From assembly GCF_006345805.1 (NCBI RefSeq), contig NC_043000.1, positions 115,072,001 through 115,136,000 on the forward strand: a DNA stretch of 64,000 nucleotides. Reading direction: 5' to 3'. Positions 1 through 6,000 of the stretch are shown in pieces (within the stretch, counting starts at the first letter, position 1; every line of letters starts with the position of its first letter). This stretch comes from Octopus sinensis (taxonomy: Eukaryota). A program made the position numbers.

Positions 1-3000
1 TTCAAAACTAACTCTGCATCTTTGATACCATGGTTAAAATTACTAATATTTTCCTATCTGGTTTTCTTTTATGTTGTATAGTGCTTTGCAGTTACTTCTT
101 GTGAGTGAATAGGGAACTGCCGAAAGATAATCATTCATATATGGCCAATATCACAGCTGAAGTTGTGATGTTTACAACATCCAAATTTACAACCTGATTA
201 TAAATTTCAGTGATCGTTAGTTGTCTTTCCATGTAAGCTGCTTGTGTTTATGTGTACGTATGTTTGCTTATATATATAGACGTGTGTGTGTGTTCTCTTG
301 AAATTTTATAAATATTGCTGTATATTAATACAGCAATGGCTCAGTGGTTAGAGCGTTGAGCTTATGATCGTGAAGTTGTGAGTTCAAATCCCAGACCGGG
401 CTGCATGTTGTGTTCTTGAGCAAGACACTTTACTCCGCGTTGCTCCAGTTCACTCAGCTGAAGAAATGAGTTGTGACGTCACAGGTGCCAAGCTGTAACG
501 GCCATTTGCCTTTCCCTTGGATAACACTGGTGGCATGGAGAGGGGAGACCGGTATGCATGGGCGACTGCTGGTCTTCCATAAACAACCTTGCCCGGACTT
601 GTGCCTGGGAGAGTAACTGTCTAGGTGCAATCCCACTGTCAATCATGACTGAAGAGGGTCTCAATGTTAATAACATAGCATGTGTATGAATTCTTCTGCA
701 AACTTGTGTGTGTGTGATGTATCCATTCATTTGTGACAGATTGATTTCTGTATTAAACAACTTTTATCTATTTCAGTTGTTGCAGAGGAATTGAAGTCAG
801 ACATGGGACTCTTTATTGAACATACCAACAATATAACAGCTGAACAGGCCAAGAATTTCCGACCGACAACACCTGTGCATAATTTAGGAAACCCTGATGG
901 AAGTCAATCACCAAGACCTCGCTTGACCACTGGAAACGAACTTACTGAGGGAACAGCAATATATCTTGGAAAACATCGCAACTCAATTGCAAGCGCCACA
1001 GATGATGACTTCAGTACAACGGACACTGTCACCTCTAATATATCAATGGGAGAAACGCTTTCACCGAAATCTTTTGAGAATGGGAAAATGCGTAGGCCGA
1101 GTATTTCGTCAGAAGGCAGCTTTACCACAGTTGGTATGTCAGAAGATTACAACATAAATGGCATTCATGACCAGTTGCCAAATGGTGACACACATATTGA
1201 AGAACCACGCATGATACCAGAAATTGTAGAAACTGTTGAAACAGGGGTTCCATATGGCATGGAATCATTCGTTCCCGATATGAATCATGTTGTTGAAAAT
1301 GAGGTGGAAACTCATGAAGTCAATGGAATTGAAGAGGAAATAGTCATGTCAGTTTCTCAGGATAACGCAAGCCGGCCAATGTTGGAAAGTAGTCCCTCGT
1401 TAGAATTAAGTAGGTCTTCAAGTGCTGCTGAATTAGCACAGTACATGAACAGTCCTAAAGAGGAACTGGTGTTGACAAAAGAGGACCGGAAATCTTTGGA
1501 TTATCGTGGCTCCCCAATGATTGAGAATCAGAGGAAACAGGAAGTGAAAGAAGAAAGCAAAAAGTTGTCTCCATCAAATGAGAAGAGGTCTCCAAAGATA
1601 AGGCTGGACGGGTACACTCTGTCAATTGACTCCGAGTCAGATACTATTGATTCCGAATCTACTCAAGACGACAGTATTCCATTAGCTGCTCAAACGAATC
1701 TGAAGAAGCAGATTGAACGCTGGCAGAAACAACTGCAGGAACACCTGAATGATAATAGCGGGTTGTACACAGCACAAGAACAAGAGAAACTGAGAGAGAA
1801 GGTTGACCAGTGGAACAAACAATTGAAAGAACTCAACGTGACAGATTCTTCCGGGTTTAGACTGCTTGAACAGAAAGTTATGAAGCAACAGATAGAACTT
1901 TGGCAAAGGAAGTTGTCTGCAAAAGAACGCCAAAGCGATGGTGCAAAGAAATACAAAGAACAAGAAATCGAATTTTTGAAGAAACAGGTTCAAGTTTGGA
2001 AACAAAAAATTAAAGTCATTGAGAAAACTTCCAGCCTGTACACCATAGAAGAGAGAGAGGTTCTTCAAGAACAGATTGACCTGTGGCAGAACCAGCTTGA
2101 TAAAAAAGGTTGTGACACAGATAGTAGCACCAAAGAACAGAATCTTCTTCGGCACCAGATTGAGGTGTGGAAGAAAAATTTGAAGGATAAGAAATTTGCT
2201 GGACATTCTTTCAGTGCCCAAGAACAAGACATCTTGAGAAGACAACTGATTGTTTGGCAGAAGCAGCTTCATTGGTACAAGGATGGAGATTCTTCTAGTC
2301 AGAGAGAGATCTTGAAAGAACAAGTGAATGTTTGGCACTCGCAACTGCAGGATGTCCAAAGCCACCAAGATAAAGATAGCAAAGTGGAGCAGGATATCTT
2401 AGAACAACAAATTGAATTGTGGCAGAATAAGATGAATGAAAAGAATTCTGGTAGTGAAGCCCTTGTGATGAAACAAATTGACATATGGAAGAAACAAACA
2501 CGAGACAATCAGAACCCTGATAATGGTTTCCTGGTGATAGAACAGCAACTTCTTGAAAGAGAAATTCAGCTCTGGAATAAAAAGCTGAATGGCAATGATA
2601 TTGAATCTGAGACTTTCTTGGCTGAAGAAATGGATGTTCTTTGTGATAAAATTGACCTCTATCAGAAGAAGTTACAGAAAAACAATGAAACTAATTCCAC
2701 AATGGAACCTATTGAACAGGACCTTTTAAAGTTGCAGGTTGATCTTTGGCAGCAGAAGCTAGCAGCCATGCAAGAGAGGAAAGAATCTTTACAGAAATAT
2801 AATGAAGAGCAACAGAATATTCTAAAGTTTCAGATAGAATTGTGGCAAGATAAACTTGCTCACCAAAATATTGATATTAACTTCAGAGGCACAGAGCTGA
2901 AAGGATCAGAGTTGTTAGCTAAAGAGATTGATATTTGGCAGCGGTGGCTTGATGTGAAGAGAGAAAAGAAAGAGACGAGGATAAAATTCAAATTACTTAA

Positions 3001-6000
3001 TGAAGAACTCCAGAAAGATCAAATCCGTCTGTGGCAAGACCATCTTGACATTATCAAGAATAACACATTAGGGTACACTGAGGAAGAACGGGAGATTTTG
3101 ATGCAGCAAATTGAACTTTGGCAGAGGGGTCTTGTAGAGAACAAAGACAAGAAGATAATTCACCTGGCTGCAGAACAGGACATTTTGAAGAAGTATATTG
3201 ATTTGTGGTACACGAAAATGAAACGAAACTCTGACACGTCTATTGGAGAGGAGGAGTCTGATGTGAGAGAACAGATTTCTATTTGGAAAAAACAACTAAA
3301 ACTGTTTAATGTAGAAGAGACTCTTTTACCACATTCTGTTCAGCAGGATATAATTAACCAACAGATTATGGTATGGCAAAAGAAACGAGAAAAGTGCCAG
3401 ACCGAAAAAGACACTGATGAGCTGGGGAAAATTGAGAGTGAAATTCTTCAGCAACAGATAGAACTTTGGCAAAATGACTTGTTAGATTATGAGAAGAGTC
3501 AAAATCAAAATGAAAATGTTCCTCAGAAACAGATAAAATTGTTACAGAGAAAACTCTCTAAAACCGACAAAGACGTCAACCCTGAAATAACTGCTCAGGA
3601 AAACGCAATCGTCAACCGTCAAATTGACTTTTATACCAAAATGAGCAGCCTCGATGAGGGTTACAACGCTGAGTATATCACTGATGAACAAGAGATTCTG
3701 GAAAAACAGATTAATCTTGCACGTCTCAAGTTATCTCAAACTGATGGTAGTTCCTATTATTCAGAAACAGAGTATGACCTTTTGCAGAAACAGGTCAATC
3801 TGTGGCACCGCCAACTGATTGCAATCCAGCATCGTTTGGATATTCGAAAGAAATTAGTTGTACAGGAACAGAACTTGCTGAAAGAACAAATATCTTTGTG
3901 GGAAGCCAAGTTGAAAACTCACCTCGGTCCTAGTTCTCACACTGAAGAACAGAAAGCTATGCAAGAGCAGTTGGAAATATGGCAGCAACAACTTGAAGAC
4001 CACAAGACTTCTATATTAAACAAAGGTTCCAATGTTAAAGAAGACCCTCTTGCAGACAAAATGGCTCAGATGCTAAAAAGCCAAGAGGAGATAATTCAAA
4101 GTTTCCAAGAGGGCTTGAAGCACCTTCCAGAGAACTTGAAAAATCAAGTGAGATCATCGCCATCATCTCCTCAGACAAAGGTACGTTCATCCAAAGGTAT
4201 ATTGCCCCCTCCTCCAGAACTTCCACAAAGACCAATTTCACCCAAAGAGATTAAGCCCCAAATAAAGCCAATTACAAACTTTCCTCCTCCACCAGAGACA
4301 TTCAGTGACAAATCACAGAAGCAGAAAGAAAACTCAAAAACCAAAAGTTCAAGCAATTCAGTACCACCAGTTCCTCCCAAACCAGCGACCCCTCCACCAA
4401 AACTTCCATTTACAGTGAATCTGAAAAAAGTTGGACCACCAAAAGAGAATTCTCCTCCAGTAAAAACAGAGGTGAATTTCTTTCGAAAACAAAATGACAC
4501 AGAAGATAGTGGTGTTGTCCGAGCTGTTCCTGCTATGGTTGTATTGAAGCCACCATCAGTAGCGCCAAAACCAAAACGGAAGTTACCAGAACCAGAACTC
4601 ACACCTCGTGAGCAATTATTAATGGAAATCAAAAATTCAAGCCGAGGTAATTTGAAAGGGGTAAGTTGACAGCCTTGTTACTTTATAGTGTCACTCATAT
4701 AGCAAACCTAGTTTAATACATGTCAACCATGTCATTTTGAAGCCTCACTCAGTCCCATTGTCTCGTAACTTCACTCAATTCCATCTAATAGCCTCACTCA
4801 ACCCCATCATCTTATAACCTCACTCACCCTTGATTCAGTTTCACTCGGTTCATGTCATTTCATGGTCCCACTCCGACTCCCACCATATGATCTCACTCAT
4901 CATTTGTCATCTCGTGACCTCACTTCTTGATATTCCAGATAAATTTTCTTGTTCAAAGAAATGTTTTTACAACGCGGTGTGTTGGCAGAAACGTTAACAC
5001 ACCAGGCAAAAAGCTTAACACTATTTCATCTGTCTTTTCATTCTGAGTTCAAATTCCACCGAGGTAAAACAAGTAAAAGTAAAGATGTTTTTTTTTTCTG
5101 TAAGACTTAGATTTAAGAGATGAGGAATTATGTACATTGTTTACATTTGACAGATATTTGTCCTTATCTTGTTTGTTGTTAATACAGCGTTTCGGCTAAT
5201 ATACCCTCCAGCCTTCTTCAGGTGTCTTGGGAAAATTTCGAATCTGGGTTCTCATTCCTAAGGTATTTTTCGATGTTGTTATTATTATTATTCAGGTCTC
5301 TGCCTGGAATCGAACTCAGAATCTTGGGGTTAGTAGCCCACGCACTTAACCACTACACCATATGCCCTGAATAGTAATAATAATAATAACAACATCAAAA
5401 AATACCTCAGGAATGAGAACCCAGGTTCAAAATTTCCCCAAGACTGGAGGAAGGATGAAGGCTGGAGGGTATATCAGCCGAAACGTTGTGTTAACAACAA
5501 ACAAGATGAGAACAAATATCCGTCAAATGTAAATAATGTTTATAATATTTTGTTGTTAAAATTTATCTGCAATAGATTGGTCATACTTCTACAAATATAC
5601 CATTCCTAATATCTTAATTATAAAAATATACTAGGATTTTTTTAAAGATCAGATGGCTTGGAGAGTCCATCTGTGTAAAATAGGAACCAAAGATTTTAAA
5701 ATGGTGGAGAAATCCTGGTATATCTGTTTGTATGTCGAGTTGTTATTATCAGACATCATTATTGTTGATGGCATCATTATCAGCCATTATTATTTCATGT
5801 TCATGGTTAATCCCTAAGCCATTAATATTGATATTTCTCTCTCTCCTCTTCAAGAACACTGTATATAAAGATGGCAGTTAATCTAAGGTTTGTAATCTTT
5901 CTGTCTCTTGAGCTACTCCAAGTCTCTCCTGCTCTCGTACAGTTGGTCTATAGTTCCTTTTCTTCCTCCTTAGATACTCAAGCTTTTGAAAGAAAGCAAA

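What the first reader, a model, noticed from the sequence alone, without database searches (positions are those of the whole stretch)
1688..4000. Unrecognised ~29-aa tryptophan-anchored repeat, ~27 copies in one exon
Seen: about 770 aa of units like EQDILxQQIELWQxKL separated by short polar linkers. W is kept in ~23 units and replaced in ~4. The DNA units are highly diverged while the frame and motif persist, which points to an old, selected repeat. I cannot assign it to spectrin, HR1, nebulin, IQ or TPR repeats. Inference: a helical-hairpin or solenoid rod, or an array of ligand-binding helices, attached to a Pro-rich/WH2 actin-regulatory tail. It may be a lineage-specific cytoskeletal spacer or scaffold.
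Basis: partly seen in the sequence, partly recalled or inferred. Interest (0 to 1): 0.8.

Follow-up and report, generated by a model that had tools for sequence, protein, structure and literature searches.

The report
Unassigned 27-unit tryptophan helix repeat array
One large coding exon holds 27 old, diverged copies of a short tryptophan-centred helix, matching no repeat family checked, followed by a proline-rich tail with actin-regulator motifs; it looks like a modular rod or docking scaffold of a cytoskeletal adaptor.

Summary
One open frame (window 737-4669, +; exon about 777-4660) holds 27 tandem units at 1688-4006. The anchor is W in 23 units, Y in 2, L in 1 and A in 1. The period is 22-32 residues, mode 29. 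Half-array HMMs recover 12 of 14 and 12 of 13 units in the other half, against a mean of 0.005 hits in shuffles. Synonymous sites between units are saturated, yet the motif persists.

Each unit is a separate amphipathic helix with an acidic N-half and a basic C-half, then a short polar linker. Pfam, PDB sequence and profile searches, Foldseek, the ESM Atlas and published Sfi1 patterns place it in no known family.

The same exon continues into a basic Pro-rich tail with LPPPP, FPPPP and a weak WH2-like end.

My best reading, at about 0.4, is a self-packing antiparallel helical rod or spacer. The main rival is a multivalent docking array.

The parts
775..776 (+). candidate splice acceptor (AG after a T/C-rich tract); the exon would start at 777, one base short of the codon boundary
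   Evidence: read directly; not confirmed by transcript data
777..4660 (+). single large coding exon (stop-free frame 737-4669, 1310 codons)
   Evidence: by far the longest ORF in the 64 kb window
777..1687 (+). N-terminal Ser/Glu/Thr-rich acidic region (304 aa, net charge -27); no family match
1688..4006 (+). the repeat array: 27 units, 773 aa, Q 13%, L 12%, K 12%, E 11%, net charge -18
1673..1747 (+). unit 1, W codon at 1721
1760..1837 (+). unit 2, W codon at 1811
1853..1927 (+). unit 3, W codon at 1901
1949..2023 (+). unit 4, W codon at 1997
2033..2110 (+). unit 5, W codon at 2084
2120..2194 (+). unit 6, W codon at 2168
2207..2281 (+). unit 7, W codon at 2255
2285..2359 (+). unit 8, W codon at 2333
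2372..2446 (+). unit 9, W codon at 2420; followed by the shortest period (22)
2438..2512 (+). unit 10, W codon at 2486
2525..2599 (+). unit 11, W codon at 2573
2612..2686 (+). unit 12, anchor is Y (codon at 2660)
2699..2773 (+). unit 13, W codon at 2747
2795..2869 (+). unit 14, W codon at 2843
2888..2962 (+). unit 15, W codon at 2936
2984..3058 (+). unit 16, W codon at 3032
3071..3145 (+). unit 17, W codon at 3119
3152..3232 (+). unit 18, W codon at 3206
3236..3310 (+). unit 19, W codon at 3284
3326..3400 (+). unit 20, W codon at 3374
3419..3493 (+). unit 21, W codon at 3467
3494..3568 (+). unit 22, anchor is L (codon at 3542)
3584..3658 (+). unit 23, anchor is Y (codon at 3632)
3671..3745 (+). 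unit 24, anchor is A (codon at 3719)
3755..3829 (+). unit 25, W codon at 3803
3851..3925 (+). unit 26, W codon at 3899
3932..4006 (+). unit 27, W codon at 3980
4007..4159 (+). non-repeat spacer between the array and the Pro-rich tail
   Evidence: sequence; no family match
4160..4600 (+). Pro-rich part of the tail; the 218-aa tail after the array is P 17%, K 13%, S 11%, net charge +16, with 7 of the exon's 8 PxxP sites
4202..4216 (+). LPPPP, a motif of the EVH1-ligand type
   Evidence: motif class from PMC4543927 (passages)
4280..4294 (+). FPPPP, a motif of the EVH1-ligand type
   Evidence: PMC4543927
4421..4432 (+). internal LKKV motif with prolines on both sides
4601..4663 (+). WH2-like end: short amphipathic helix followed by LKGV
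   Evidence: the only PDB hit is Spire WH2-D (3mn7_S), E 0.58; no Pfam family at E up to 10. A motif-level call only.
4661..4662 (+). candidate splice donor (GTAAGT), on a codon boundary
   Evidence: use not confirmed
4667..4669 (+). in-frame TGA two codons past the candidate donor; if the donor is unused the protein ends right after LKGV

Best explanation
The array is a string of 27 separate amphipathic alpha-helices of about 20-24 residues, joined by short polar linkers. Each helix has one stripe of I/L, L, I, L and W, L centred on the tryptophan, an acidic N-half and a basic C-half. Some helices start with an aromatic residue and a Ser/Thr-x-x-Glu cap.

I think neighbouring helices most likely fold back on each other antiparallel, as a zig-zag or small-bundle rod. 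That would bury the Trp stripe and pair each acidic N-half with a neighbour's basic C-half. The result would be a long, modular and possibly extensible spacer or scaffold in the middle of a cytoskeletal adaptor.

The same exon then supplies a basic Pro-rich tail that could recruit Ena/VASP-type EVH1 domains (LPPPP, FPPPP), SH3 domains or profilin (PxxP, polyPro) and an actin monomer (WH2-like end).

Shown: the repeat, its age, its helical periodicity, the charge asymmetry, the tail motifs and the lack of any family match.

Inferred: the helix-helix packing, the spacer role and every binding partner.
For: - Discrete helices: AF2 of the whole array gives 25 helices separated by breaks of 3-13 residues. 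16 of 26 linkers hold Pro or Gly. S/T at -14 with E/D at -11 occurs in 8 of 27 units, and Y or F at -15 in 12 of 27.
- Compact packing: AF2 of units 4-6, with the other eight 3-unit blocks as its alignment, gives pLDDT 74.7 and pTM 0.55 with three helices. Its best Foldseek matches by TM-score (about 0.5) include small helical bundles such as SCIN, a RAP domain and a designed homo-oligomer.
- Charge complementarity that fits antiparallel neighbours: summed over 27 cores, the part before the anchor carries -41 and the part from the anchor on carries +27.
- A wide apolar face that could touch two neighbours: aliphatic at -8 in 22 of 27, at -7 in 25 of 27, at -3 in 27 of 27 and at -1 in 24 of 27; W at 0 in 23 of 27; L, M or I at +4 in 24 of 27.
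- All units are equivalent: no lag from 1 to 9 stands out, with identity 0.295-0.319. This fits a one-unit repeat.
- Three of the four W-less units are neighbours (22-24). By my own arithmetic that has a chance of about 0.03 (576 of 17,550 ways), which hints that neighbours are not independent.
- The motif is held by selection: synonymous sites are saturated.
Against: - The full-array AF2 model is poor (pLDDT 49.7, pTM 0.26). I could not inspect coordinates, so the packing in the 3-unit model is inferred only from pTM and the kind of Foldseek matches.
- None of the 105 Foldseek matches reaches E 0.001.
- AF2 tends to bundle any three amphipathic helices.
- Only 34% of residues are apolar and the mean hydrophobic moment is modest: 0.31, against 0.225 in shuffles with a 95th percentile of 0.43.
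- Strongly kept polar residues on or beside the apolar face (Q-4 in 22 of 27, Q+1 in 15 of 27), and linker lengths from 2 to 12, fit a docking array at least as well.
- There is no two- or three-unit super-period of the kind most solenoids and spectrin-type rods show.
Confidence: 0.4

Rival explanations
1. Multivalent docking array. Each helix is an independent binding site for one copy of the same partner. The most concrete candidate is an EF-hand protein (calmodulin-, centrin- or light-chain-like), bound as on Sfi1 or IQ arrays. This would give a protein-decorated filament tied to an actin-assembly tail.
For: - The spacing of apolar anchors, [ILVM][ILVM]-x3-[ILVFM]-x2-W, is present in 17 units. 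It has the same geometry as the Sfi1 consensus LL-x3-F/L-x2-W (PMC2173958, passages).
- The period of 22-32 overlaps Sfi1's 23-35.
- The unit number, 27, is close to Sfi1's 20-24 continuous repeats (PMC2063913, passages).
- Kept polar residues next to the Trp, free linker length and sequence, and 15 of 26 periods keeping the Trp within 40 degrees of the same helical face all suit a recognition site.
Against: - The published Sfi1 scan patterns give 0 matches: [FWL]x2W[KRH] finds 0, and Ax12[FL]x2W[KRH] finds 0.
- The residue after W is K, R or H in only 6 of 27 units.
- The array is net acidic at -18. From my own knowledge, not tested here, EF-hand proteins are acidic and their targets usually basic.
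- Sfi1 is one continuous helix with almost no proline. Here 16 of 26 linkers hold Pro or Gly and the model breaks between units.
- No Sfi1 or IQ chain appeared in the PDB profile searches.
Confidence: 0.25
2. Intermolecular segmented coiled coil. The short heptad-like stripes pair with the same stripes of a second chain, giving a hinged dimeric or higher-order rod or fibre.
For: - Core positions at -7, -3, 0 and +4 follow a 4-3-4 spacing.
- The mode period of 29 equals four heptads plus one residue. SF-assemblin is described as a segmented coiled coil with a 29-residue repeat (PMC2119799, title and occurrence counts in the search listing only).
Against: - Only about two heptads per unit are apolar.
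- Trp would sit in a core position.
- Pro or Gly occurs in 16 of 26 linkers.
- Pfam returned no coiled-coil or SF-assemblin family at E up to 1.
Confidence: 0.1
3. Membrane- or lipid-binding amphipathic helices, apolipoprotein- or perilipin-like, that hold the actin tail on a membrane surface.
For: Repeated amphipathic helices with Trp, a residue often found at membrane interfaces (my own knowledge). The mean hydrophobic moment is above the shuffled mean.
Against: - Conserved Q(-4) and E(-11) lie on the apolar face (by my helical-wheel arithmetic).
- The moment is modest.
- The array is net acidic.
- No apolipoprotein or perilipin family appeared in Pfam.
Confidence: 0.06
4. Actin-filament ruler. 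Each unit lies along one actin subunit, as nebulin modules do, with the WH2-like end at the filament tip.
For: A long array of equal helical modules is joined to actin-related tail motifs.
Against: - The array is acidic at -18. Filament side-binders such as nebulin are basic (my own knowledge).
- There is no SDxxYK motif (0 matches; the motif is recalled).
- Pfam returned no family above cut-off.
Confidence: 0.05
5. No function. A decaying or neutrally drifting repeat, or a non-coding open frame that arose by chance.
For: No expression data. No homologue could be searched for.
Against: - The open frame is 1310 codons, the longest in the window by a wide margin.
- The motif is kept in 27 units whose synonymous sites are saturated.
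- The half-array HMMs cross-validate.
Confidence: 0.03

Closest known systems
Sfi1 centrin-binding repeats (PMC2173958, PMC2063913)
   Same: About 20-27 tandem units, each anchored on a conserved Trp. Same spacing of apolar residues before the Trp (LL-x3-F/L-x2-W against I/L-L-x3-I-x-L-W). Overlapping variable period (23-35 against 22-32). Helical.
   Different: The published scan patterns find nothing here. Q rather than K/R usually follows the Trp. I/V rather than F/L sits at -3. The array is acidic. Helices are broken by Gly/Pro/Ser/Asn linkers instead of forming one continuous helix. The context is an actin-type tail rather than a centrosome protein.
Myosin IQ motif arrays
   Same: Tandem helical light-chain sites with a period of 23-29 residues (passages in PMC2173958; a listing for myr 1).
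   Different: No IQ motif: 0 strict and 0 loose matches (the motif is recalled). No Pfam IQ hit.
Spectrin-type three-helix rods
   Same: Helical and rod-like, with Trp as a conserved core residue (my own knowledge). The 3-unit AF2 model has three helices.
   Different: The spectrin unit is about 106 aa with three unlike helices (recalled). Here one helix makes a 29-aa unit with no lag-3 signal. Foldseek to utrophin and dystrophin repeats gives E above 1 and TMq about 0.28. No Pfam hit.
SF-assemblin segmented coiled coil with a 29-residue repeat (PMC2119799, title and occurrence counts in the search listing only)
   Same: A 29-residue period in a helical protein.
   Different: That rod is a coiled coil built on heptads. 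Here the apolar stripe covers only about 12 residues per unit and the linkers hold Pro or Gly. No Pfam hit.
MTSS1/MIM-type adaptors (PMC11615175)
   Same: A central scaffold portion with Pro-rich motifs and a C-terminal WH2 that binds actin monomer (passages). Here the order is array, Pro-rich tail, WH2-like end, possibly at the very C-terminus.
   Different: The defining N-terminal I-BAR domain would lie in exons outside the window. Neither the first 74 aa nor the last 70 or 27 aa of the exon matched any MTSS1 chain in the PDB. MTSS1 is not described with such a repeat in the passages I read.
Lamellipodin C-terminus (PMC4543927)
   Same: A basic, unstructured tail with FPPPP or LPPPP EVH1 sites and SH3 sites (passages). 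The tail here has net charge +16, one LPPPP and one FPPPP.
   Different: Lamellipodin has six FPPPP motifs and an RA-PH core (the RA-PH core is recalled). Nothing here shows those domains.

Membership tests
Sfi1 repeat | consensus AX7LLX3F/LX2WK/R; published scan patterns Ax12[FL]x2W[KRH] and [FWL]x2W[KRH] (PMC2173958) | tested here: not met
   0 matches to either pattern in the array. Only the relaxed apolar spacing is present, in 17 units.
Sfi1 repeat | tandem units 23-35 residues apart, about 20-24 in a row | tested here: met
   27 units with periods of 22-32; compared.
Sfi1 repeat | repeat region nearly free of proline and forming one continuous helix | tested here: not met
   6 Pro and 18 Gly in the array. 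16 of 26 linkers hold Pro or Gly. The AF2 secondary structure breaks between units.
Sfi1 repeat | each repeat binds one centrin | not testable with these tools
IQ motif array | [FILV]Qxxx[RK]Gxxx[RK] (motif recalled) | tested here: not met
   0 strict and 0 loose matches. Pfam returned no IQ family at E up to 1.
Spectrin repeat | about 106-aa unit of three unlike helices; Pfam model match | tested here: not met
   No Pfam hit. No lag-3 periodicity. Foldseek to spectrin repeats gives E above 1 and TMq about 0.28.
Nebulin / Xin actin-binding repeats | SDxxYK module; Xin WLFE core (both motifs recalled) | tested here: not met
   0 matches to each. No Pfam hit.
TPR / HEAT / other Pfam helical repeats | match to a curated profile | tested here: not met
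   The only Pfam row for the whole exon is Melibiase_2_C, 16.7 bits, below its 22.5 cut-off.
WH2 domain | short amphipathic helix followed by an LKKV-type motif (PMC9569871 figure legend); profile match | tested here: inconclusive
   A helix-like stretch plus LKGV lies at 4601-4663. The only PDB hit is Spire WH2-D, E 0.58. Pfam returned nothing at E up to 10.
EVH1 ligand | FPPPP or LPPPP core (PMC4543927) | tested here: met
   LPPPP at 4202 and FPPPP at 4280. This is a motif match only; binding was not tested.
MTSS1/MIM (I-BAR adaptor) | N-terminal I-BAR domain | not testable with these tools
   Any upstream exons lie outside the window. The first 54-304 aa of this exon match no Pfam family above its cut-off and no PDB chain.

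The most novel reading that the evidence does not exclude
The array is an animal, actin-linked counterpart of the Sfi1 and ciliate-myoneme scaffolds. On this reading, 27 Trp-anchored helices each carry one EF-hand protein, forming a Ca2+-responsive decorated filament whose end recruits Ena/VASP and actin monomer. That would be a direct mechanical or regulatory link between a centrin/calmodulin-type system and actin assembly.
Probability: 0.1. Interest if true: 0.85.

Novelty: new variant of a known kind. Interest (0 to 1): 0.5.

Why it matters
Long arrays of identical helical modules usually act as rulers, springs or multivalent platforms. Spectrin, nebulin, Sfi1 and IQ necks are examples.

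This array is clean: 27 units of a sharply defined motif kept after synonymous saturation. It matched no curated family checked here. It is also hard-wired to motifs of the actin-assembly machinery.

If it is a self-packing rod, it is a new one-helix repeat architecture that structural biologists and protein designers could use. If it is a docking array, it points to an unknown multivalent partner system at actin-rich sites.

Both readings can be tested directly with a 3-6 unit fragment.

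Tried and rejected
Searches that found no family or relative:
- Pfam on the whole exon and on four pieces gave nothing above cut-off.
- PDB sequence searches with the whole exon, the first 74 aa and the last 70 aa gave nothing better than E 1.3.
- PDB profile searches gave a best E of 0.18 (ABIN-1 coiled coil) for the 3-unit alignment A2, and 0.17 (single chance helices) for the 27-unit alignment A3. Neither found Sfi1, spectrin or IQ chains.
- The ESM Atlas on the array and on the whole exon gave no usable hit.
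- Foldseek of the 3-unit model against the PDB gave 105 matches at E up to 10 and none at E 0.001 or better.
- The scan of bacterial and archaeal genomes first failed because alignment A2 was too variable. With the 773-aa array it matched 50 stretches by pattern, and none was a relative by tblastn.

Steps that did not work:
- A first pseudo-alignment of 22 overlapping 6-unit windows (A1) was useless, because MAFFT stacked the identical overlaps. I replaced it with nine non-overlapping 3-unit blocks (A2).
- The self-association job (two copies of units 4-6) returned 'no answer' with a score of 0.00 and controls not run. It counts neither for nor against binding.

Literature:
- Searches for a 29-residue repeat, for WH2 with FPPPP, tandem repeats and tryptophan, and for WH2 in molluscs found no description of this repeat.

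Leads from memory, set aside as untested:
- The start of the exon might be the end of an I-BAR domain.
- The spacing in the WH2-like end resembles long-linker WH2 types.

Rejected on the sequence:
- I considered LIR, PIP-box, kinesin W-acidic, acidic dileucine and AKAP-type helix motifs by eye. The spacings do not fit.

Full report
**What is there**

The window has no N. Its only long open frame runs 737-4669 on the + strand, 1310 codons. A pyrimidine tract and an AG at 775-776 precede it. A GTAAGT lies at 4661, two codons before an in-frame TGA at 4667-4669. The simplest reading is one coding exon of about 3.9 kb (777-4660). It either splices on or simply ends the protein. Transcript data are needed to decide.

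**The repeat**

Anchoring on the aromatic position gives 27 units between window 1688 and 4006 (773 aa).

- The anchor is W in 23 units, Y in 2, L in 1 and A in 1.
- The 26 periods span 22-32 residues. 29 occurs 9 times.
- The conserved block is about 18-20 residues (counts of 27): E(-11) 19, Q(-10) 14, acidic (-9) 16, aliphatic (-8) 22, L(-7) 19, Q(-4) 22, I(-3) 20 with V 5 and L 2, acidic (-2) 16, aliphatic (-1) 24, W(0) 23, Q(+1) 15, K/R(+2) 15, K/Q(+3) 21, L(+4) 21.
- Linkers between the blocks are 2-12 residues, polar and unalike. 16 of 26 hold Pro or Gly.
- Y or F sits at -15 in 12 of 27 units. S/T(-14) with E/D(-11), a helix N-cap pattern, occurs in 8 of 27.

**Is it more than chance?**

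- An HMM from units 1-13 recovers 12 domains in the half holding 14 units. An HMM from units 14-27 recovers 12 in the half holding 13. In 200 shuffles of each half the mean was 0.005 hits and the maximum 1.
- In a six-frame scan of all 64 kb, the 27 hits lie in this frame only.

**Age and selection**

- Tandem Repeats Finder sees no DNA array of this period.
- Cores are 31% identical in protein and 49% in DNA. Identity at third codon positions is 0.36.
- Where two units share a residue they share the codon in 845 of 1935 cases (0.437), against 0.42 expected from codon usage.
- Synonymous sites are therefore saturated while the motif is kept, which within one genome is the signature of selection on the protein.
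- No lag from 1 to 9 units is more similar than any other (0.295-0.319). There are no recent duplications and no two- or three-unit super-repeat.

**Shape**

- AF2 on the whole array without an alignment is poor (pLDDT 49.7, pTM 0.26). It draws 25 helices separated by 3-13-residue breaks, roughly one helix per unit.
- I then used the nine non-overlapping 3-unit blocks as an alignment for units 4-6 (A2). AF2 gives pLDDT 74.7 and pTM 0.55 with three helices.
- Foldseek against the PDB finds nothing significant: 105 matches at E up to 10 and none at E 0.001 or better. The best TM-scores, about 0.5, include small helical bundles.
- Each core is acidic before the anchor (sum -41) and basic from it on (sum +27). 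Apolar residues make up 34% of the array. The hydrophobic moment is modest.

**Family searches**

- Pfam-A gives only a sub-threshold, irrelevant row for the exon and nothing for the pieces.
- PDB sequence and profile searches give no hit better than E 0.17. None is to Sfi1, spectrin, IQ or any repeat protein.
- The ESM Atlas gives no usable hit.
- The prokaryote genome scan gives no relative.
So I cannot say whether the repeat exists in other animals or is already catalogued as an unnamed family. This is the main gap in the report.

**Closest idea: Sfi1**

Kilmartin's consensus AX7LLX3F/LX2WK/R, with repeats 23-35 residues apart (PMC2173958, passages), has the same apolar spacing before the Trp as this motif. 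Sfi1 proteins have 20-24 continuous repeats (PMC2063913, passages). Membership nevertheless fails.

- The published scan patterns give 0 matches here.
- K, R or H follows the Trp in only 6 of 27 units.
- The array is acidic.
- Sfi1 is one continuous, nearly proline-free helix, whereas these helices are capped and broken.

It may still work in a similar way as a docking array, which is my main rival reading.

**The rest of the exon**

- The first 304 aa are Ser/Glu/Thr-rich with net charge -27 and match nothing above cut-off.
- After the array come a short non-repeat spacer and a tail of 218 aa with 17% Pro and net charge +16.
- The tail has LPPPP at 4202, FPPPP at 4280, 7 of the exon's 8 PxxP sites, an LKKV at 4421 and an LKGV at 4652.
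- FPPPP and LPPPP are the canonical EVH1-binding cores (PMC4543927, passages).
- The last 27 residues give a single weak PDB hit, to the helix of Spire WH2 domain D (E 0.58). Pfam returns nothing for them. I therefore call this end WH2-like, not a WH2 domain.
- The order of central scaffold, Pro-rich part and terminal WH2 is that of MTSS1-type adaptors (PMC11615175, passages). The defining I-BAR domain would lie upstream of the window and cannot be checked.

**Mechanism**

I commit, at about 0.4, to a self-packing antiparallel helical rod that spaces an unseen N-terminal part from an actin-assembly tail.

- Grounds for: capped discrete helices, charge complementarity, a wide apolar face, the moderately confident 3-unit model, and the clustering of W-less units 22-24.
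- Grounds against: the poor full-array model, the low apolar content, the kept polar residues beside the Trp and the free linker lengths.
- Rivals: a multivalent docking array at 0.25, then an intermolecular segmented coiled coil, lipid-binding helices, an actin ruler and no function.

**Surroundings**

- On the minus strand, single exons match pyridine nucleotide-disulphide oxidoreductase domains: 29819-29968 (E 1.6e-15) and 46092-46262 (E 3.9e-7). By eye they look like glutathione reductase. I searched them singly and did not join them.
- A tRNA-Ile, an 18S rRNA fragment and a perfect 1389-bp tandem duplication also lie in the window.
- Nothing in the window identifies the organism.
- Supplementary files of the papers were not consulted and are unlikely to bear on these claims.

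Noticed in passing
window 29819-29968 (-), 46092-46262 (-), 49416-49616 (-): Small minus-strand ORFs match Pyr_redox_dim (E 1.6e-15) and Pyr_redox_2 (E 3.9e-7). The third gave no Pfam hit but by eye looks like the redox-active N-terminal part. Together they suggest a glutathione-reductase-like gene spanning about 20 kb, tail-to-tail with the repeat gene.
   Followed up: partly
window 7109-9903: A perfect tandem duplication with a 1388-1389 bp period (three 100%-identical blocks of 212-300 nt) lies a few kb downstream of the exon. It is either a very recent duplication or an assembly artefact.
   Followed up: partly
window 41354-41427 (+): tRNA-Ile (anticodon AAT), found by both Rfam (50.8 bits) and ARAGORN.
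   Followed up: yes
window 58568-58836 (-): An isolated fragment of eukaryotic small-subunit rRNA (model positions 1219-1484 of 1831; 56.8 bits, just above the gathering score). It is probably an rRNA-derived insert or repeat.
   Followed up: no
window 3494-3745: Three of the four units that have lost the Trp (units 22, 23 and 24) are neighbours. The chance of this is about 0.03 by my arithmetic. It suggests either local relaxation or coupling between adjacent units.
   Followed up: partly
window 1682-2690 (-) and 4171-4677 (-): Long antisense open frames (238, 131, 99, 90 and 168 aa) overlie the exon. They look like by-products of its skewed codon content rather than genes.
   Followed up: no
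window 4661-4669: A consensus-like donor (GTAAGT) sits two codons before the in-frame stop. The WH2-like motif either ends the protein or is completed by a downstream exon.
   Followed up: partly
window 38158-38613 (+), 44654-45007 (-), 25673-26144 (-): These ORFs look by eye like decayed transposase and reverse-transcriptase remnants. None reached a Pfam hit at E 0.01. Short SINE-like peptides recur in many ORFs across the window.
   Followed up: partly
window 51172-51750, 43079-43534, 12070-12770: Long (CA)n/(TG)n-type microsatellites give spurious His/Thr- or Cys/Val-rich open frames on both strands.
   Followed up: no
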